Positions 2,562 through 51,238 of a stretch of 64,000 nucleotides of DNA are shown piece after piece. The notes below the pieces were generated by a model. The model did not search any database, was not told the DNA's origin, and saw only the letters and a program-made list of their open reading frames with translations. A program made the position numbers and the translations under genes. How positions within the stretch are numbered: the stretch's first letter is position 1; each line of letters begins with the position of its first letter. Where the stretch lies: contig VBAL01000114.1 of NCBI GenBank assembly GCA_005888595.1, forward strand, positions 573 to 64,572. The letters run 5' to 3'. The stretch is from Candidatus Segetimicrobium genomatis. Its GTDB lineage: Bacteria > Sysuimicrobiota > Sysuimicrobiia > Sysuimicrobiales > Kaftiobacteriaceae.

Positions 2562-3389
2562 GTGACCGGTCTCGCGCTGGTCCTCCCTCCGTTTTTCCTT
2601 CTCATCTTCTTCATTTTGGTCCCCGCCGCACAGGCGGTCCTGGAGACACTGCGCGTCGAGCGCAGCGGTCAGATCGTGTATTCTCTGGCCCGCTACGTGG
2701 AGATGTTCCACACCATCTCGCTGCGCCGCAGCGTGGGGTTCACCGTCATGGTGACGCTGGCCTCGGTGGCGGTCACCTTCGTGCTGGCCTACGCGCTCGC
2801 GTTATACCTGCGCTTCAGCCGGGGATGGGTGAGTACGCTGCTGGGGGCTCTGTTTATCATCCCCCTGTTCATTCCGACGGTCATCGCCTCGTTCGCCATG
2901 GTAACGTTTCTGGAGCACCACGGCTACATTGCCACCCTGCTGCACTACGTCGGCGTGGAGGACACGCCATCGCTGGTGTTCAACGCCACCGGCATCGTGC
3001 TCACCGAGGTCTGGGCGAGTATTCCTTTCGCGACGCTTGTGCTGCTGGCCGGGCTGCAGGGCATCGATGACGCGCTCATCGACAGCGCGCGCGACGTGGG
3101 CGCCGGGGCGCTGCGGACATTCCTGGCCGTCGTCCTGCCGCTCAACGCGGTGGCGACCATCATCACCATGAGTCTGCTCTTCATCGGCATCCTGGGCAGT
3201 TTCACCATTCCATATCTGGTCGGCGGGAACGCCCCGCAGATGATGAGCGTGGTGATGACCAACTACTTCACGAACTACCTGCGGCCGGATATCTCCGTCT
3301 CCCTGGCGGCACTGAGCTTTGTGATCGCCGGGCTGGCCGGGGCCGCCTACGTCGCCGGCGTCTCGCGCCGGGAGCGGGGTGCGGTGTGA
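2562..3389 (+). CDS. ABC transporter permease (PotB-like, binding-protein-dependent inner membrane component)
   Basis: Six predicted TM helices and the EAA-like loop DSARDVGAGALRTFLAVVLP. GTG at 2562 with GGGAGGGAG RBS, 20 nt after the SBP stop. The longer ORF start at 2187 overlaps the SBP gene. Confidence 0.75.
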   Translation: MTGLALVLPPFFLLIFFILVPAAQAVLETLRVERSGQIVYSLARYVEMFHTISLRRSVGFTVMVTLASVAVTFVLAYALALYLRFSRGWVSTLLGALFIIPLFIPTVIASFAMVTFLEHHGYIATLLHYVGVEDTPSLVFNATGIVLTEVWASIPFATLVLLAGLQGIDDALIDSARDVGAGALRTFLAVVLPLNAVATIITMSLLFIGILGSFTIPYLVGGNAPQMMSVVMTNYFTNYLRPDISVSLAALSFVIAGLAGAAYVAGVSRRERGAV

Positions 3390-4169
3390 GCGCCGTTGGC
3401 GAGGCGGTGCGCGAGCGTGTCGGCGGCCTGTTCTGGTTCTGGTCGGTGGGCGCGTTCCGGCGATCGCTGCCGGTGCTCTTCCTCCTTGGGCTGGCGGCAT
3501 TTATCCTCGGACCGCTGCTGAGCCTCATCCTCTGGGCCTTTGCGGGCCGGTGGTTCTACCCGGCGTTGCTGCCCCAGGAGTTCTCCGTGAAGTGGTGGGA
3601 CGTGGTCTTTGGAAATCGCAGCGTCGTGAATTCGATCAAATACAGCCTGATGACCGCCCCGACGGTCACGCTGCTGTCCGCGCTGATCTGCCTGCCGGCC
3701 GCCTACGCCTTCGCGCGCTTCCAGTTCCCCGGCCGGCGGTTTCTGCTGCTGTCCTTTCTCAGCGCCAACTCGTTTCCCAAGATCGGGCTCTACATCAGCA
3801 TCGCCACGCTCTTCTACCGCCTCCACCTGATGACGACGTTTTGGGGTGTGGTGCTGATCCAGTTGATGGGCACGCTGTTGTTCATGATCTGGATCCCCAC
3901 CGGGACGTTCCGGGGGATCAACCGCAGTCTGGAAGAAGCGGCGCGGGACGTGGGCGCCAGTGGCGCGCGCACCTTCTTTCAGATCACCCTCCCCATTGCC
4001 ATGCCCGGGCTGCTGGTTGCCGGACTGTTTGCCTTCCTGGCGGCGTTCGATGAAGCGCAGGGGACGTTGATCGTTCTCGATTCTGCTGACGCTGCCCTCG
4101 CTGGTGCTGCTGCTCCTGGCGCAGCGGTTGCTGCGGCAGGGCTACCTCGCCGCGGGCTACACGCTCTGA
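3386..4169 (+). pseudogene. ABC transporter permease (PotC-like) disrupted by an internal deletion/frameshift near 4078-4090; reads through into the ATPase gene
   Basis: GTG 3386 (GTGA overlap with upstream stop). Frame A is a canonical permease up to FDEAQGTLIV, then ~22 residues expected from the paralogue 23298..24143 (MPYVQTLPVLLWAYLGGRSSIFTY) are missing. The canonical C-terminus ILLTLPSLVLLLLAQRLLRQGYLAAGYTL* continues in the +1 frame, stop TGA 4167-4169. In frame A the ORF fuses to the ATPase (ORF 3386..5290, 634 aa). Confidence 0.65.
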
Positions 4170-4177
4170 GGCTGCCC

Positions 4178-5290
4178 ATGGCCGGCCTGCAGCTCGTCAA
4201 CCTCACCAAGCGCTTCGGGACGACGGCGGCGGTCTATGACTTCTCGCTGGATGTCCACGACGGCGAGTTGATGTGCCTGCTGGGGCCATCGGGGTGCGGA
4301 AAGACGACGACGCTGCGGATGATCGGCGGCTTCGCCACTCCCGACGGCGGCGACATCCTGATCGAGGGGCAGAGCGTCCTGGCGTTGCCGCCGGAGCGGC
4401 GCCCCACGGCGATGGTATTTCAGCGGTTCAATCTCTGGCCGCACATGACCGTGACGGACAACATCGCCTTCGGCCTGCGGCTCCGGCGCCTACCCGCGGC
4501 CGCGATCCATCGGAAGGTGGGAGAGACCCTCCAACTGGTCGGCCTCCCGCACGCGGCGCGCAAATGGCCGCACCAGCTCTCCGGAGGGGAGCAGCAGCGC
4601 ATCGCCGTGGCGCGGGCGCTGGTCCTGGAGCCGAAGATCCTGCTCCTGGACGAACCCTTCAGCAACCTCGACGCGCGGCTGCGCGTGCGGATGCGGGAAG
4701 AACTGAAGACGCTGCAACGCCAGGTCAGTATCACGACGGTCTTTGTCACGCACGATCAGGAAGAGGCGCTGACGCTCGCCGATCGGATCGCCGTGATGAA
4801 CAAGGGCGTCATGGAGCAGGTGGACACACCCGGGGCCCTCTATCGCCGGCCGCAAGGGCTGTTCGTGGCCGACTTCATGGGCACCATGAACTTCATTCGC
4901 GCGCGGTACCATCGCGATCGGGGCGCGCTGGCCGGCGGTCAGGTGGGCATCGCCGCCCGCGGTGACTGGCACGATGGCGCAGTGGTCACCGTGGCGTTCC
5001 GTCCGGAGGATGTGATGTTCGTCGATGGCGATGCGGGCATTCCCGTTCAGGTTCGTCGCGTCGTCAACCTCGGCCATTACCTGGAGGTCACCGTCGACGG
5101 CTCCGGGGTCGGGGCGATCAAGGTCTTCACGGATGGACAGCGACCGATGTCCGAGGGGCAGAGCCTGAACGTACACTTCAGGCGCATCCTGGTCTACGCG
5201 GAGGGCTTACCTCTCGCGGAGATCGAGATGCCCCGCCTGACGCACCTGCGCACTGCTGAGGAAGTGGTCGAGGGCTCGCCCAGCGTCTAG
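4178..5290 (+). CDS. ABC transporter ATP-binding protein with C-terminal TOBE domain (PotA/MalK/FbpC-like)
   Basis: Walker [11 protein letters not shown]-loop, signature LSGGEQQRIAVARAL, Walker B ILLLDEP, H-loop VTHD. C-terminal ~130 aa is a TOBE/MOP-like beta domain. ATG at 4178 (MAGLQLVNLTKRFG). Confidence 0.85.
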   Translation: MAGLQLVNLTKRFGTTAAVYDFSLDVHDGELMCLLGPSGCGKTTTLRMIGGFATPDGGDILIEGQSVLALPPERRPTAMVFQRFNLWPHMTVTDNIAFGLRLRRLPAAAIHRKVGETLQLVGLPHAARKWPHQLSGGEQQRIAVARALVLEPKILLLDEPFSNLDARLRVRMREELKTLQRQVSITTVFVTHDQEEALTLADRIAVMNKGVMEQVDTPGALYRRPQGLFVADFMGTMNFIRARYHRDRGALAGGQVGIAARGDWHDGAVVTVAFRPEDVMFVDGDAGIPVQVRRVVNLGHYLEVTVDGSGVGAIKVFTDGQRPMSEGQSLNVHFRRILVYAEGLPLAEIEMPRLTHLRTAEEVVEGSPSV

Positions 5291-5470
5291 AACCGTAGGG
5301 ACGTCCGATCACCTGCCCGAGGTGGTTCCGCACGAATCACGCTGAGTTTCCGCTGGTCGGTCAAATGGCTCGCTGCCCAGGTCGGGACAAAATCTGGTGT
5401 GTTTGGCGGAATGCGGGTACGTCAAACTTGGAATCGGGAGCCCTGGACTAGATCTGATGGCTTTCTATGC

Positions 5471-5761
5471 ATGGGGGTCCGGTACGTGACTTATCTGTAC
5501 GCCCTGGTGGTAATCTTACTGGTCGCTCTGCCAATCATCGTCGCGTTCGGATACGCTGCCAAAAGAGGGAAGTCTGCTCGGACAACTGCGTCTTTCGTTC
5601 TGCCGTACATTGCACTGCTCGCTTTGTCGTTTTTTTTGCTTGAAAAGCTCAGAGGGTTTGATCTCCTCGTTGCAACGGTAGTCGTTGTCGCGATTGGTAC
5701 GTTGGCATTCTATGTGTACGCGGAAATAGTCGACATTGGACTCCGAGGTCGCAAGAACTAA
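5471..5761 (+). CDS. small hypothetical membrane protein (~96 aa, 3 predicted TM helices) in low-GC island
   Basis: ORF 5399..5761; internal ATG 5471 (MGVRYVTYLYALVVILLVALPIIVAFGYAA...). GC ~50% versus ~67% in flanks. Uses TTA/AAA/AGA codons that are rare elsewhere in the window. Three hydrophobic helices. No recognisable family. Confidence 0.4.
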   Translation: MGVRYVTYLYALVVILLVALPIIVAFGYAAKRGKSARTTASFVLPYIALLALSFFLLEKLRGFDLLVATVVVVAIGTLAFYVYAEIVDIGLRGRKN

Positions 5762-6116
5762 CTAGGGTTCATCGGTGCCTGGCACCGATGAAGAAAAAAT
5801 AACTCGATTGGCATCAGGAGAATGACCCGGTTGGGTCATTGACGTCAACACCTACTCGTAGGGTTCATCGGTGCCTGTCACCGTCGATCCAGCGAGTCAT
5901 CGGTGTCAGGCACCGATGAAGCAAAAGGGGCTCGATTTGGCTATCGGAGAATGACCCGGCTAGGTCATTGTTGCAGGACCAGTCTGGTTGAGCCTATCCA
6001 GCGGCGCGATAACAGCGAGTGAGACTGTTCACGGTGCCAAGGCACCGATGAAGAAAAAATGGCTCGATTGGCTATAGGAGAATGACTCGATTGGGTCATT
6101 GACGCAAACACTTACT
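5762..6116. repeat. three tandem copies of a ~95-105-bp structured repeat (copy A 5762-5857, copy B 5858-~5976 with expanded stem-loop and divergent tail to ~6026, copy C ~6027-6116)
   Basis: Each unit has hairpin 1 TTCATCGGTGCC-N-GGCACCGATGAA (12-bp perfect arms; copy B arms ~20 bp with 13-nt loop), then GAAGAAAAAAT, then GGCTCGATTGG, then hairpin 2 AATGACCCGGTTGGGTCATT, then CAACACCTACTCG. Copy C overlaps the TAA stop of the TIM-barrel gene at 6112. Confidence 0.85.
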
Positions 6117-6939
6117 TGCGCACGATGCCGCGGAGATAGGCCAGGGCCCGCGGTACAGCCGTCGTCCCGGGCTCCTCGCCCTCGTACTCGACCGACACGT
6201 ACCCTTTGTATCCCGCCCCGCGCAGCAGCGCGATCGCGGCGTCGTGATCCACGCGCGCGTCGCGTCCATCGGGTAACACCTTGGTGAACTTGGCGTGGAC
6301 ATGCCACGCCAGCCGTGCGGTCCGCTCGATGCTGGCCTGGCCGTCGAGATAGTTCCCCGAATCCAGGAGCAGGCCCAGGGCCGGGCTCCCCACGGCTTCC
6401 AGGATCGCCAGTACGTCTGCCGCCGTCTGCACGAACCCGCGATGATTATGGTTTTCCATCACCAACTGCACCCCGAGCAGTTCGGCCTCCCCGCAGGCGG
6501 CGCGCAATGCCGCGATCATCGGGTGCCACCGCGCCGCGCGATCGCCTTCGGGCCATCCCGCAAAGGTCCGCAGGAAGCGTGTCCGCAACTGTTTCGAGAT
6601 GTCCATCCAGGCTACGGTCCGCAGCAGTTCCTCCTGACGTTGCGCGTCATCGGCCACTCCGAAGTCGTTCATGAAGGCGATGTTGACGATCTCCAATTTG
6701 TGGTGATCCGCCGCCTCGCGCAGCTCGGCAAGATGTTCCGGAGTCGGCGCGCCAATGTGTTTGTCCTCCAGCTCGACGGCCTTCAAACCGAGATCCTCGG
6801 CGCACAGGCGGAACCAGTCCACCAGGGTCAGCTGGCCGGCGTCAATTTCCTTTGCATACGACTCTGAACTGCAGGCGAGATCCACGGGCTCACTCCGTGC
6901 GAACGCGAGTGGGCAGGCCACCCGCGGCGATGCTGGCAT
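6112..6939 (-). CDS. sugar phosphate isomerase/epimerase (xylose-isomerase-like TIM barrel; IolE/IolI/MocC-like)
   Basis: 275-aa ORF with family motifs (VELEDKH, VMENHN, LDSGN, VHAKF). Start either ATG 6939 (50-nt overlap with upstream gene) or GTG 6885 (4 nt after the upstream stop). Confidence 0.8.
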   Translation of the reverse strand: MPASPRVACPLAFARSEPVDLACSSESYAKEIDAGQLTLVDWFRLCAEDLGLKAVELEDKHIGAPTPEHLAELREAADHHKLEIVNIAFMNDFGVADDAQRQEELLRTVAWMDISKQLRTRFLRTFAGWPEGDRAARWHPMIAALRAACGEAELLGVQLVMENHNHRGFVQTAADVLAILEAVGSPALGLLLDSGNYLDGQASIERTARLAWHVHAKFTKVLPDGRDARVDHDAAIALLRGAGYKGYVSVEYEGEEPGTTAVPRALAYLRGIVRK

Positions 6940-49462: not shown

Positions 49463-51238
49463 ATGACCACGACGAAGTGCCCAAGTTGCGGAACTGAGCA
49501 CGCTGCCGATACATTGGCGAAGGTGCTGTACGTCTGCCCCCGCTGCGGGACGTACCTGCATATGCCGGCCCGCGAGCGCATCATGATGCTGGCCGATCCG
49601 CGCGCGTTCAAAGAACTGGACCGCGGCCTGGTCTCCGTCGACCCATTGCGCTTTACGGATCAGCGCTCATACCGTGAGCGGCTGGCCGAGGCACGGCGGC
49701 GGACCGGGTTGCGCGAGGCCGTGGTGATCGGTGAGGCGCGCCTCGAGGGCAGACCCGTCGTCCTGGTCGTGTTCGACTTCGACTTCATGGGCGGGACGAT
49801 GGGTTCGGTGGTAGGAGAGAAAGTCGCCGACGCGTTCGAACACGCCACGCGCCGCCGTTGGCCGGTGGTCAGCGTGGTAGCCAGCGGGGGCGCCAGGATG
49901 CAGGAAGGGATGCTCTCCCTGATGCAGATGGCCAAGACCGCGGCCACGCGGGCCGGGCACGACCGGGCCGGACTGGCCCACATTGCGGTTCTTACCGATC
50001 CCACCTTCGGCGGTGTCGCGGCGAGCTTTGCCTCCCTGGCCGACGTTCTCATCGCTGAACCCGGTGCGGAAATCGGGTTCGTAGGGCCGCGGGTAATCGA
50101 CCTGACCCTCAACGAGCCGCAGCCCGCCGATTCCCACCGCGCCGAGGCCCTCTTCCGTGCCGGCATGGTCGATCTCGTCGTCGGGAGGCCGGAGCTTCGC
50201 GCCACGGTAGCCTTTCTGGTCGGCCACCTCAGCCGCCCCAGCGCCCGGCGCGCGCGTACGTTACCCGGACGTGCCGGCGCCGGTGTGATCCGCAGCGTCC
50301 CGGAGCAATCGCCTCCGCCGCCGTGGCACACGGTGCAGCTGGCGCGCCATGCCGGCCGCCCGACGTCCCTGGAATACATCACGCGGCTATTCGCACGGTT
50401 CGTTGAGCTGCACGGCGACCGGCAGCTCGGCGACGACGCCGCGATCGTATGCGGGCTCGGCGAACTGAAGGGGCAGACGGTCGTCGTCGTCGCGCAGGAA
50501 CGAGGCCGGACCGACGAGGAGCAGGCGCAGCGCCGGCGCGGCAGGCCGTTTCCCGAAGGATACCGCAAAGCCCTGCGCCTGATGCAACTGGCGGCGAAGT
50601 TCGGGCTGCCGGTGGTGACGCTGATCGACACGCCGGGGGCCTATCCCGGCTACCAGGCGGAACAGCGCGGCATTGCCCAGGCCCTCGCGCACAATCTCCA
50701 GGCCATGGCGTCCCTCCCGACGCCGATTGTCAGCGTGGTGATCGGCGAAGGGGGCAGCGGGGGGGCGCTGGCGCTGGGCGTCGCAGATCGCGTCCTCATG
50801 CTGCAGAACGCGATCTATTCCGTCATCTCCCCGGAGGGCGCGGCGGCCATCCTCTTCCGGGACGCGGCCAGGGCCCAGCAGGTGGCCGAGGCGCTGAAGA
50901 TTACCGCCGACGATCTCCTCCGTCTGGGGGTGATCGACGGGATTGTTCCCGAGCCCGAAGGCGGCGCGCATACCGATGCCGACCTGGCCGCGCGACGGCT
51001 TGGCGGCGCGCTGCAGGCGACGCTGCGCGACCTCACCCGGATGAGCGTCGATACCCTCTTGCGCCGGCGCTACCAGAAGTACCGGCACATCGGCAAGGTC
51101 GGCGTCTACTGGCGTCAAGTTGTGCGCCGCGAGATGCAGGAGCTCTTGGATGCCCTTGAGCAACGCCTGCTGCGGCGCGAGCATGGGGCCGGGCCGGATG
51201 AAGATGTCCGCCGGCGGAAAGATCCCGCGGCCCAGTAG
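49463..51238 (+). CDS. accDA: acetyl-/acyl-CoA carboxylase carboxyltransferase, fused beta (AccD) and alpha (AccA) subunits
   Basis: N-terminal Zn-ribbon CPSCG...CPRCG and AccD crotonase-fold region (residues 1-~290). C-terminal AccA region (~300-591) with GGSGGALALGV oxyanion-hole motif. Confidence 0.8.
   Translation: MTTTKCPSCGTEHAADTLAKVLYVCPRCGTYLHMPARERIMMLADPRAFKELDRGLVSVDPLRFTDQRSYRERLAEARRRTGLREAVVIGEARLEGRPVVLVVFDFDFMGGTMGSVVGEKVADAFEHATRRRWPVVSVVASGGARMQEGMLSLMQMAKTAATRAGHDRAGLAHIAVLTDPTFGGVAASFASLADVLIAEPGAEIGFVGPRVIDLTLNEPQPADSHRAEALFRAGMVDLVVGRPELRATVAFLVGHLSRPSARRARTLPGRAGAGVIRSVPEQSPPPPWHTVQLARHAGRPTSLEYITRLFARFVELHGDRQLGDDAAIVCGLGELKGQTVVVVAQERGRTDEEQAQRRRGRPFPEGYRKALRLMQLAAKFGLPVVTLIDTPGAYPGYQAEQRGIAQALAHNLQAMASLPTPIVSVVIGEGGSGGALALGVADRVLMLQNAIYSVISPEGAAAILFRDAARAQQVAEALKITADDLLRLGVIDGIVPEPEGGAHTDADLAARRLGGALQATLRDLTRMSVDTLLRRRYQKYRHIGKVGVYWRQVVRREMQELLDALEQRLLRREHGAGPDEDVRRRKDPAAQ

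What the first reader, a model, noticed from the sequence alone, without database searches (positions are those of the whole stretch)
5762..6116. Triplicated ~100-bp repeat, each copy with two perfect hairpins
Units share TAGGGTTCATCGGTGCC-loop-GGCACCGATGAAGAAAAAAT...GCTCGATTGG...GGAGAATGACCCGGTTGGGTCATTG...CAACACCTACTCG. Hairpin 1 has 12-bp perfect arms; in copy B it is expanded to ~20-bp arms. Hairpin 2 is AATGACCC-GGTT-GGGTCATT. Conservation of both stems with compensatory layout suggests function at the RNA level or as repeated protein-binding palindromes. Three tandem copies is unlike CRISPR, REP/BIME or MITEs. The last copy overlaps the stop codon of the downstream TIM-barrel gene, so it could also terminate or stabilise that convergent transcript.
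Basis: seen in the sequence. Interest (0 to 1): 0.7.

Follow-up and report, generated by a model that had tools for sequence, protein, structure and literature searches.

The report
Repeat modules bounding mobile gene cassettes
The three hairpin-bearing repeats are real, but they are copies of a dispersed palindromic DNA module that marks the joints of small mobile gene cassettes inserted between two convergent genes of an uncultivated soil bacterium, and there is no evidence for a conserved RNA structure.

Summary
Three related units lie at 5766-5858, 5897-6026 and 6028-6118, each with a 12-bp-arm palindrome (S1) and an 8-bp hairpin. No further copy occurs in the 64-kb window, and nothing matches in Rfam, plasmids or phages.

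They are not a local triplication. The whole stretch 5291-6118 (828 bp, 51% GC in a 65% GC genome) is an insertion. A 90%-identical relative has the ABC-ATPase and TIM-barrel genes converging with overlapping stop codons and no spacer. Two other alleles carry different small ORFs at the same point, with the same units and the same right junction.

The unit recurs as an 85-205-nt module with sharp ends in other variable hot spots of related soil metagenome contigs. There it always forms same-orientation arrays between unrelated cargo: toxin-antitoxin genes, small membrane proteins and defence-like genes.

The stems show no covariation. One arm is invariant and the other decays. There is no terminator signature and no attC architecture.

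Best reading (about 0.45): DNA-level recombination (att-like) junction sites left by accretion or exchange of cassettes that carry no recombinase of their own. The enzyme is unknown.

The parts
5291..6118 (.). Whole inserted segment (828 bp, about 51% GC in a 65% GC genome) between the stop codon of the ABC-transporter ATPase gene (TAG, 5288-5290) and the original end of the TIM-barrel gene.
   Evidence: The empty-site allele L042 reads GTCTAG|CGCACGAG with overlapping stops. The window reads GTCTAG|aaccgtaggg...acttacttg|CGCACGA. It is the only low-GC island in the 64 kb. More distant relatives L068 and L069 are also empty.
5291..5361 (+). Left-end segment of the insertion. It contains TAGGGA (5296-5301) and a small hairpin (CACCT..AGGTG). 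Positions 5317-5345 resemble the sequence that follows the ctaA-ctaB stop codon in L026.
   Evidence: The homologous ORF92 cassette of L026 and L016 starts at CAAATAGCT, which corresponds to window 5362.
5471..5761 (+). Cargo gene: small membrane protein of 96 aa (alternative GTG start at 5486 gives 91 aa). Function unknown.
   Evidence: An identical protein P0121 is on record, with 59-75% identical homologues of 92-109 aa. Homologues sit in three unrelated contexts: this site, the ctaAB hot spot, and a tRNA-Lys island. No Pfam, PADLOC or PHROG match.
5766..5858 (+). Unit A: S1 palindrome 5768-5792, hairpin 2 at 5821-5840, tail 5841-5858.
5859..5890 (+). TAGGG plus the S2 site (TTCATCGGTGCC-TG-TCACCGTCGATCC, 5864-5890). 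This is the same right-end site that closes the 205-nt form of the module elsewhere. With unit A it forms one complete S1...S2 module.
5891..5896 (+). AGCGAG: the 6 nt between S2 and the next S1. This is the position where cargo sits in other arrays, so it can be read as an 'empty cassette'.
   Evidence: inference.
5897..6026 (+). Unit B: S1 at 5897-5920, hairpin 2 at 5950-5969 (one C.A mismatch), 57-nt tail homologous to the first half of the long-form spacer.
   Evidence: The B+C pair is conserved in L043 and L053.
6028..6118 (+). Unit C: S1 at 6028-6052, hairpin 2 at 6081-6100, tail 6101-6118. It forms the right junction and supplies AAG-TAA (Lys plus stop) to the TIM-barrel gene.
   Evidence: The same junction ..acttacttg|(c/t)gcacga is found in L041/L053 and L043.
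6112..6885 (-). Flanking TIM-barrel (sugar phosphate isomerase/epimerase, PF01261) gene. Its last codon and its stop codon are insertion-derived.

Best explanation
The three units are DNA-level junction (att-like) sites of a small, recombinase-less mobile insertion. They are not an RNA element.

The basic module is [S1 palindrome: two 9-12-bp inverted arms around a short spacer] - [about 60 nt of conserved sequence including hairpin 2] - [variable spacer] - [S2, a diverged copy of S1].

In a lineage of uncultivated soil bacteria (probably Armatimonadota) such modules sit in direct orientation between unrelated cargo segments. They occur at a few hot spots that lie exactly at gene ends.

The window holds two such segments in tandem:
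- 5291-5858: left end, a 96-aa membrane-protein gene, and unit A.
- 5859-6118: S2, unit B and unit C, with no ORF.

I infer that a site-specific recombinase acting in trans binds the S palindromes and joins, excises or exchanges the segments. The geometry fits a tyrosine-recombinase core site, but no enzyme was identified. Successive integrations (accretion) and exchanges would then leave arrays of repeated sites.

Shown: the insertion, the empty site, alternative cargo at the same site, module boundaries, uniform orientation, lack of covariation, and duplication of a gene end at a second hot spot.

Inferred: that S1/S2 are recombinase-binding sites, and that recombination rather than transposition or homologous exchange moves the cargo.
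For: 1. There are four alleles of one site:
   - empty (L042; also L068/L069 at 78% identity);
   - the window allele (ORF96 + A + B + C);
   - L043 (SnoaL-like ORF + B + C);
   - L053/L049/L041 (GC-rich palindrome + B + C' + two ORFs + one unit).
   All filled alleles share the right junction.
2. The module has sharp ends and is 85-95% identical in unrelated contexts. In L026 it truncates a phd antitoxin gene. In L045 it truncates copies of an MFS gene that is intact in L051.
3. Every array is unidirectional: 3/3 units in the window, L045, L046, L052 and L053, and 2/2 in L043.
4. At the ctaA-ctaB hot spot a 2.85-kb insertion is absent from L044 and L046. It ends with unit - TATC - an S-like palindrome - a displaced copy of the last 31 nt of ctaAB (25/31 identical; score 19 against a shuffle maximum of 14). 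This is the classic signature of integration into a gene's 3' end.
5. The cargo is typical of integrative islands: parE/phd, a weak HigB-like match (below the Pfam cut-off) next to an HTH-Peptidase_M78 protein, DUF3800, an NTPase with weak defence-family matches, and small membrane proteins.
6. The stems show no covariation, and sequence conservation extends to unpaired parts.
7. The window allele is stable in at least 18 contigs from many samples but is mosaic in B and C. This indicates exchange between units.
8. Known precedents exist: CIME accretion (PMC5704250) and modular excision of PAISt at palindromic att copies at a gene 3' end (PMC4057263).
Against: - No integrase, resolvase or transposase was seen on any held contig next to a unit. 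This rests on Pfam and on the precomputed Pfam lists. The rest of the window was not scanned against Pfam; no recombinase was evident on reading its translated ORFs.
- At the window's own site there is no detectable duplication of either flanking gene end.
- The conserved boundaries lie at the outer edges of S1 and S2, not in their centres. That fits a transposon-like element equally well.
- The spacers of S1 (CCAGG) and S2 (CCTGT) differ, so S1 x S2 exchange by a tyrosine recombinase would be disfavoured.
- The segments are very small (0.26-2.9 kb) compared with known CIMEs.
- No circular junction or excision product was observed.
Confidence: 0.45

Rival explanations
1. The S1...S2 module is a self-propagating non-autonomous transposable element, a MITE- or PATE-like repeat of about 125-205 bp. 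A transposase encoded elsewhere mobilises it. It inserts preferentially into already variable, AT-richer island DNA. Cargo differences between alleles then arise by ordinary homologous recombination between these portable repeats.
For: The long form has sharp outer boundaries in unrelated contexts. Its two ends are imperfect inverted repeats: the left 27 nt against the reverse complement of the right 27 nt match at about 21/27. It carries no ORF and has several hairpins. It interrupts genes (phd, MFS). Variants of units B and C are mosaic, which suggests gene conversion.
Against: No target-site duplications flank any of 8 long copies. The interrupted genes do not resume on the other side of the element. 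All units in every array point the same way, which is unexpected for independent insertions. Copy number is low: one locus in 64 kb and none in 36 kb of 78%-identical relatives. No autonomous partner with these ends was found.
Confidence: 0.22
2. The units act in RNA as 3'-UTR stem-loops. They would be U-tract-less terminators or exonuclease barriers, as REP/BIME elements are. They would insulate and stabilise the transcripts of the cargo ORF and of the convergent TIM-barrel operon. They travel with cassettes because they are useful to them.
For: In five cases a plus-strand ORF ends 5-44 nt before S1: window unit A, L043, the terminal unit of L053, L046 unit 2 and L052 unit 1. The units lie between convergent genes. 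S1 is a strong GC-rich 12-bp stem. From general knowledge, high-GC bacteria often use hairpins without a U-tract.
Against: No terminator-like site on either strand. No covariation. The stem arm nearest the ORF is the one that decays. Many units follow no ORF, or face the 5' ends of minus-strand genes. The strongest conservation lies in unpaired sequence between the hairpins. Three units in a row are not needed for this role.
Confidence: 0.15
3. The palindromes are operators for a dimeric DNA-binding regulator, for example an antitoxin or island-encoded repressor. Alternatively they are centromere-like binding arrays, repeated to give cooperative binding.
For: S1 is a perfect 12+12-bp palindrome and hairpin 2 an 8+8-bp palindrome. 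Both are conserved as sequence rather than as structure. Toxin-antitoxin genes are frequent neighbours.
Against: No consistent neighbouring regulator gene. The intact phd-parE promoter region in L027 does not contain S1. The units lie downstream of genes as often as upstream. Nothing in this model explains the sharp module boundaries, the empty-site polymorphism or the gene truncations.
Confidence: 0.08
4. There is no dedicated function. Long perfect palindromes are fragile sites, and the arrays are scars of repeated illegitimate or slipped-strand rearrangements and local duplications in a hypervariable region.
For: Deletion and truncation end points coincide with the base of S1. The structures are mosaic with partial sites (S2, solitary arms).
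Against: The module is 85-95% conserved over up to 205 nt, with identical boundaries in many contexts and samples. The same right junction is reused with different cargo. Random scars would not be this regular.
Confidence: 0.1

Closest known systems
Accretion arrays of integrative elements and their decayed derivatives. Examples are CIMEs (cis-mobilizable elements, e.g. ICESt1-related elements of Streptococcus thermophilus) and PAISt modules of Streptomyces.
   Same: Insertion at the end of a conserved gene, with an empty-site allele. Repeated att-type sites in direct orientation divide the island into modules. The modules lack their own recombinase. A displaced copy of the gene 3' end is seen at the ctaAB hot spot. 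The att core is palindromic: PAISt uses TTCATGAA at the 3' end of bacA (PMC5704250, PMC4057263).
   Different: Segments here are 0.26-2.9 kb, against tens to hundreds of kb. The repeated site is a 125-205-nt two-palindrome module rather than a short core inside a duplicated gene end. No gene-end duplication is seen at the window's site. No integrase was identified anywhere.
Integron cassette arrays and CALINs (clusters of attC sites lacking an integrase).
   Same: Same-orientation arrays of 85-205-nt imperfectly palindromic sites separate one- to three-gene cassettes. Cargo is small unknown proteins and toxin-antitoxin pairs. ORF-less 'cassettes' occur. An ORF stop codon often lies a few nt before the site.
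   Different: No attC architecture. There are no RYYYAAC/GTTRRRY boxes with paired L boxes 40-150 nt apart. There are two independent local palindromes instead of one long bulged hairpin. No IntI gene is present. The arrays lie between convergent housekeeping genes.
REP/BIME elements of enterobacteria, and neisserial intergenic mosaic elements (NIMEs). This comparison is recalled from general knowledge.
   Same: Extragenic palindromic units clustered in mosaics. They are often found between convergent genes and overlap gene ends. Both DNA-level and RNA-level roles have been proposed for them.
   Different: REPs are 20-40 nt, occur in hundreds of copies, alternate in orientation within BIMEs and carry no cargo. 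Here copy number is low, orientation is uniform and variable genes lie between units.
MITEs / palindrome-associated transposable elements.
   Same: Short, non-coding, hairpin-rich element with inverted-repeat ends, found in several contexts and able to interrupt genes.
   Different: No target-site duplication. There are no simple filled-versus-empty pairs for the element alone. The array organisation is unidirectional. No autonomous relative was found.

Membership tests
Integron attC site / CALIN | Inverted core boxes R'' (RYYYAAC) and R' (GTTRRRY) 40-150 nt apart, with complementary L''/L' boxes, so that one strand folds into a single bulged hairpin. | tested here: not met
   A scripted scan of window 5700-6130, L043 8590-8840 and L046 10350-10950 on both strands found no AAC...GTT pair with at least 6/7 complementary boxes. 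L046 8000-8400 gave a single pair (seen from both strands) whose L boxes matched only 2/8. IntegronFinder's own covariance model could not be run.
Integron attC site / CALIN | Arrays of sites in one orientation separating short cassettes. | tested here: met
   nhmmer maps and ORF maps.
Integron attC site / CALIN | An intI-type tyrosine recombinase next to the array (absent by definition in CALINs). | tested here: inconclusive
   No PF00589-type hit among the ORFs tested or in the precomputed Pfam lists of the contigs. Contigs are short, and arrays run off their ends.
REP / BIME | A 20-40-nt imperfect palindrome present in very many extragenic copies, with alternating orientation inside clusters. 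| tested here: not met
   One locus in 64 kb and none in 36 kb of 78%-identical relatives. Orientation is uniform. The unit is 85-205 nt with two different palindromes.
REP / BIME | Association with a RAYT (REP-associated tyrosine transposase) in the genome. | not testable with these tools
   The host genome is not available. The one genome-contig scan returned only chance matches.
MITE | Terminal inverted repeats. | tested here: met
   The ends of the 205-nt form are imperfect inverted repeats, because S1 and S2 are related palindromes.
MITE | Target-site duplication flanking each copy, and simple filled/empty sites. | tested here: not met
   The flanks of 8 long copies share no direct repeat. 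The phd gene interrupted in L026 does not continue beyond the element.
Intrinsic (factor-independent) terminator | GC-rich hairpin followed by a T-run on the transcribed strand. | tested here: not met
   0 sites in 5200-6300 on either strand. In A and C, S1 is followed by an A-run on the plus strand, so on the minus strand the T-run precedes the stem.
Structured RNA family (Rfam or new) | Match to a curated covariance model, or compensatory base changes across homologues. | tested here: not met
   No hit at gathering thresholds. Only sub-threshold miRNA-type noise at E up to 10. Covariation score 0.101 against 0.098 in shuffles, with 2 pairs showing double changes against 1.3 expected.
Accretion array of site-specifically integrated elements (CIME-like) | Insertion at a defined point at a gene end, with an otherwise identical empty allele. 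| tested here: met
   L042 against the window, L043 and L053. L044/L046 against L045 at ctaAB.
Accretion array of site-specifically integrated elements (CIME-like) | Direct repeats of the att core, including a duplicated end of the target gene, at both ends of the element. | tested here: inconclusive
   Met at the ctaAB hot spot (a 31-nt displaced copy) and suggested by repeated MFS 3' fragments. Not met at the window's ABC|TIM site.
Accretion array of site-specifically integrated elements (CIME-like) | A cognate integrase, in cis or in trans, that recombines the repeated sites. | not testable with these tools
   No candidate was found on the held contigs. It needs complete genomes and experiments.

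The most novel reading that the evidence does not exclude
The S1-hairpin2-S2 modules are the recombination sites of a previously undescribed gene-cassette system that is not an integron. The system would operate in Armatimonadota-like soil bacteria. Cassettes of 0.3-3 kb, carrying toxin-antitoxin, defence-like and small membrane-protein genes, would be captured, stacked and swapped at a few gene-end hot spots. The recombinase would be encoded elsewhere in the genome, with the roughly 125-205-nt two-palindrome module playing the part that attC plays in integrons.
Probability: 0.2. Interest if true: 0.8.

Novelty: new variant of a known kind. Interest (0 to 1): 0.5.

Why it matters
If the units are recombination sites, this locus shows gene-cassette capture at gene ends in a poorly known soil phylum, with a site type unrelated to integron attC. 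It would add a second kind of cassette platform. It would also give a sequence handle (GGCACCGATGAAG...GAATGAC-N7-GGTCATTG) for mining its cargo and finding its enzyme.

Even on the conservative reading the result is useful. It explains a low-GC island, a one-codon extension of a housekeeping gene, and repeated assembly breaks in many soil metagenomes. It also removes a false candidate for a structured RNA.

Tried and rejected
- **Rfam.** Searched at gathering and at permissive thresholds; nothing credible.
- **Plasmids and phages.** blastn of the 355-bp region found no match.
- **Genome collection.** An exact 20-mer scan of 185,579 species genomes gave only chance hits in unrelated phyla, none with hairpin 2.
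- **Viral contigs.** Two scans gave chance hits in coding sequence.
- **CRISPR or a true tandem repeat.** TRF finds no array and the spacing is irregular.
- **Type III toxin-antitoxin repeat array.** Considered and dropped. The units are about 100-130 nt, no endoribonuclease toxin gene follows them, and the same units lie between unrelated genes.
- **Coding potential of the units.** Short ORFs on either strand are not conserved in frame between unit types (inspection sequences).
- **Remnant of a convergent gene.** The idea was that the unit beyond S1 is a remnant of the convergent 106-aa gene seen in L016. Only the palindrome aligns.
- **XerCD/dif-like site.** S1 lacks the ATAA-N6-TTATG core. 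This rests on memory of dif consensus sequences and was not formally tested.
- **Copies of the ABC or TIM gene ends inside the insertion.** Nothing above shuffled controls.
- **Recombinase search.** Pfam on 30 ORFs around the arrays found none.

Full report
**1. The observation**

Window 5762-6116 contains three related units.
- Unit A: a perfect palindrome S1 (TTCATCGGTGCC-T-GGCACCGATGAA, 5768-5792), a second hairpin (AATGACCC-GGTT-GGGTCATT, 5821-5840) and the tail GACGTCAACACCTACTCG (5841-5858).
- Unit B: S1 at 5897-5920, hairpin 2 at 5950-5969 and a 57-nt tail.
- Unit C: S1 at 6028-6052, hairpin 2 at 6081-6100 and the tail GACGCAAACACTTACTTG (6101-6118).

A and C are 86% identical, and B is about 73% identical to either. 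The 25-nt hairpin-2 motif occurs three times where shuffles give none. The region folds far better than shuffles on both strands (z = -7.0 and -6.3). blastn and a profile search find no further copy in the 64-kb window.

**2. The surroundings: the repeats sit in an insertion**

The stretch 5400-6100 is the only low-GC island of the window, at 50-53% against 65% overall. It holds a real gene at 5471-5761, a 96-aa membrane protein. An identical protein is on record, and 59-75% identical homologues exist.

A contig from a relative whose TIM-barrel protein is 90% identical (L042) has the ABC-ATPase gene and the TIM-barrel gene converging with overlapping stop codons...AGCGTCTAGCGCACGAG.... The window reads ...AGCGTCTAG|aaccgtaggg...acttacttg|CGCACGAT.... 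So 5291-6118 (828 bp, give or take 1) is inserted DNA.

The insertion turns the TIM gene's ...CGC TAG into ...CGC AAG TAA, adding one lysine. This agrees with the C-termini of the orthologues. More distant relatives (78% identity, L068/L069) are also empty and carry no units in 36 kb.

**3. Other alleles of the same site**

- L043 carries TAG|aacgataagagg..., a SnoaL-like 121-aa ORF, a B-like unit and a C-like unit, ending ..agttacttg|CGCACGAG.
- L053 (with L049 and L041) carries a GC-rich long inverted repeat, a B-like unit, a C-like unit, a 128-aa ORF, a different 95-aa membrane ORF and one more unit, ending ..acttacttg|TGCACGAG.

The site therefore has at least four states with different cargo but the same units and the same right junction. 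The B+C pair is conserved as a pair. The window's three copies are thus not a recent local triplication.

The window's allele is itself present, with three units, in at least 18 contigs from many samples. Variation in B and C is mosaic, and many contigs end inside the units.

**4. The unit is a dispersed module**

One scan of JGI metagenome contigs with CACCGATG-N27-33-GAATGAC-N7-GGTCAT returned 14 loci. With a profile search these give about 19 distinct units.

In eight unrelated contexts the conserved block is a roughly 205-nt module with sharp ends, 85-95% identical between copies. Its order is:
GTTCRYCGGTGCC-A-GGCACCGATGAAG ... AATGACCCGACCGGGTCATT ... about 100 nt ... TTTTCGTCGGTGCC-TG-TCACCGTCGCTC.

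Its right end (S2) is a diverged copy of S1. Window 5864-5890 is such an S2.

All units in a locus point the same way: three each in the window, L045, L046, L052 and L053, and two in L043. Between units lie unrelated genes in either orientation:
- parE/phd;
- a weak HigB-like match (E = 4e-4, below the Pfam cut-off) followed by an HTH-Peptidase_M78 protein;
- DUF3800;
- a 780-aa NTPase with only weak defence-family matches;
- HEAT-repeat proteins;
- small membrane proteins.

The homologue of the window's small ORF occurs in three contexts: here; downstream of a unit in the ctaAB array (L026); and in a tRNA-Lys island, where only an S1-like palindrome follows it.

**5. Signs of site-specific integration at a second hot spot**

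L026, L044, L045, L046 and L055 are alleles of a locus next to a fused ctaA-ctaB gene. In L044 and L046 the ctaAB stop and the stop of a convergent gene are 9 nt apart. L045 has 2.85 kb inserted there.

At the right end of that insertion the order is: short unit (S1, hairpin 2, TGACGAGAACTTACTCG), TATC, an S-like palindrome (TTCGCCAGTGCC-A-GGTACCGAAGAA), and then a displaced copy of the last 31 nt of ctaAB. The copy is 25/31 identical, with score 19 against a shuffle maximum of 14.

In the same arrays, several 5'-truncated copies of an MFS gene each end at the left edge of a unit. The uninterrupted gene is seen in L051. In L026 a phd gene is cut at the same edge, and its missing part does not follow the element.

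Duplicated target-gene ends beside repeated sites are the hallmark of integrative elements that accrete in tandem. Decayed members of such tandems (CIMEs) keep their att sites but lose their integrase (PMC5704250). PAISt of Streptomyces excises in modules at palindromic att copies at a gene 3' end (PMC4057263). At the window's own site no such duplication is detectable.

**6. What the units are not**

- Not a known RNA: no Rfam hit.
- Not supported as a structured RNA. On 19 units the three helices are 90% paired, but the covariation score equals the shuffled value (0.101 against 0.098; 154/500). Only 2 pairs show double changes, against 1.3 expected.
- The right arm of S1 and the unpaired sequence between the hairpins are nearly invariant. 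The left arm carries uncompensated changes.
- Not intrinsic terminators.
- Not integron attC sites: no R''/R' plus L''/L' architecture.
- Not a plasmid or phage sequence.
- Not protein-coding in any conserved frame.
- Not REP/BIME-like in copy number or orientation.
- Not classical MITEs: no target duplications, and arrays are unidirectional.

**7. Most likely mechanism**

S1 has the geometry of a recombinase core site: two 9-12-bp inverted arms around a short spacer. Hairpin 2 and the conserved 60 nt could hold accessory sites.

The evidence fits units as att-like junction sites of small recombinase-less segments that are integrated, stacked and exchanged at gene-end hot spots by an enzyme acting in trans. 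That evidence is:
- modules in direct orientation between exchangeable cargo;
- reuse of one junction with different cargo;
- empty alleles;
- truncated and duplicated target-gene pieces;
- mosaic unit variants.

On this reading the window holds two segments in tandem: 5291-5858 with the membrane-protein gene, and 5859-6118 without an ORF.

The insertion, the alleles, the boundaries, the orientation and the absence of covariation are shown. Recombinase binding and the mode of movement are inferred. No recombinase was found on any contig, and no excision product was seen. I put this at about 0.45.

The rivals are:
- a MITE-like element plus homologous exchange (0.22);
- RNA 3'-end stem-loops in the manner of REP elements (0.15);
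- palindrome-driven rearrangement scars (0.10);
- operator or centromere-like binding sites (0.08).

**8. Host, novelty and score**

Named homologues of the window's fused AccD-AccA are Armatimonadota MAGs at 65-77% identity. The source is therefore probably an uncultivated soil member of, or neighbour to, that phylum.

The kind of thing is known: repeated junction sites of accreted mobile segments. The site type, the very small segment size and the absence of any recognisable recombinase are not matched by the families I could test. I therefore rate it a new variant of a known kind.

The most novel reading not excluded is a non-integron cassette system (probability about 0.2). Interest is 0.5. 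The original RNA idea falls, but the locus gives a concrete handle on cassette exchange in a little-studied lineage.

Noticed in passing
L021 4113-4690 (same structure in L016 9054-9640 and L020): A tRNA-Lys(TTT) gene is followed by three partial copies of its 3' end, a sign of tandem accretion at a tRNA att site. The 92-aa homologue of the window's small ORF starts directly after the last remnant. The island also holds GIY-YIG and SocA_Panacea genes.
   Followed up: partly
window 3386-5290: The ABC permease and ATPase read as one 634-aa ORF here. Relatives (L042, L068) have separate, overlapping permease and ATPase genes. This may be a real fusion or just an upstream in-frame extension of the ORF listing.
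   Followed up: no
window 49463-51238: A fused AccD-AccA carboxyltransferase. Its named homologues (65-77% identity) are Armatimonadota MAGs, the only clue to the host's phylum.
   Followed up: partly
L053 about 5400-5660 (minus strand as fetched): The left part of that allele's insertion is a roughly 200-nt GC-rich long inverted repeat (ctggggctggtggagg...cctccaccagtcccagcccc), unrelated to the units. Its nature is unknown.
   Followed up: no
L045 (reverse complement 1656-1793, 2422-2748, 3756-3951, 5966-6263); L051 7830-8362: Three to four truncated copies of the 3' part of one MFS transporter gene lie inside a single array, each ending at a unit. The uninterrupted gene is in L051.
   Followed up: partly
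L026 2263-2771 and 3417-3633; L027 669-1213: Two diverged copies of a parE-phd toxin-antitoxin operon flank the unit and the small ORF. The upstream phd copy has lost its 5' end exactly at the left edge of the unit.
   Followed up: partly
L014, L015, L058, L061, L064, L066 (contig ends): Many metagenome contigs carrying the window's allele stop inside units A-C. Assemblers break there, as expected of a multi-copy repeat in the community.
   Followed up: no
L045 reverse complement about 1295-1310, and window 6110-6118: The motif CTTACTTG that ends the window insertion also occurs 10 nt after the ctaAB stop codon, at the left edge of the L045 insertion. A related CTTACTCG ends the short unit at that insertion's right edge. 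It may be a short core repeat or a coincidence.
   Followed up: no
window 5950-5969 against L015/L057/L060: Hairpin 2 of unit B has a C.A mismatch in the window (CCGGCTAGG). In a second haplotype of the same allele it is fully paired (CCGGCTGGG), and that haplotype also differs at several other B positions. This suggests patchwise exchange between units.
   Followed up: partly
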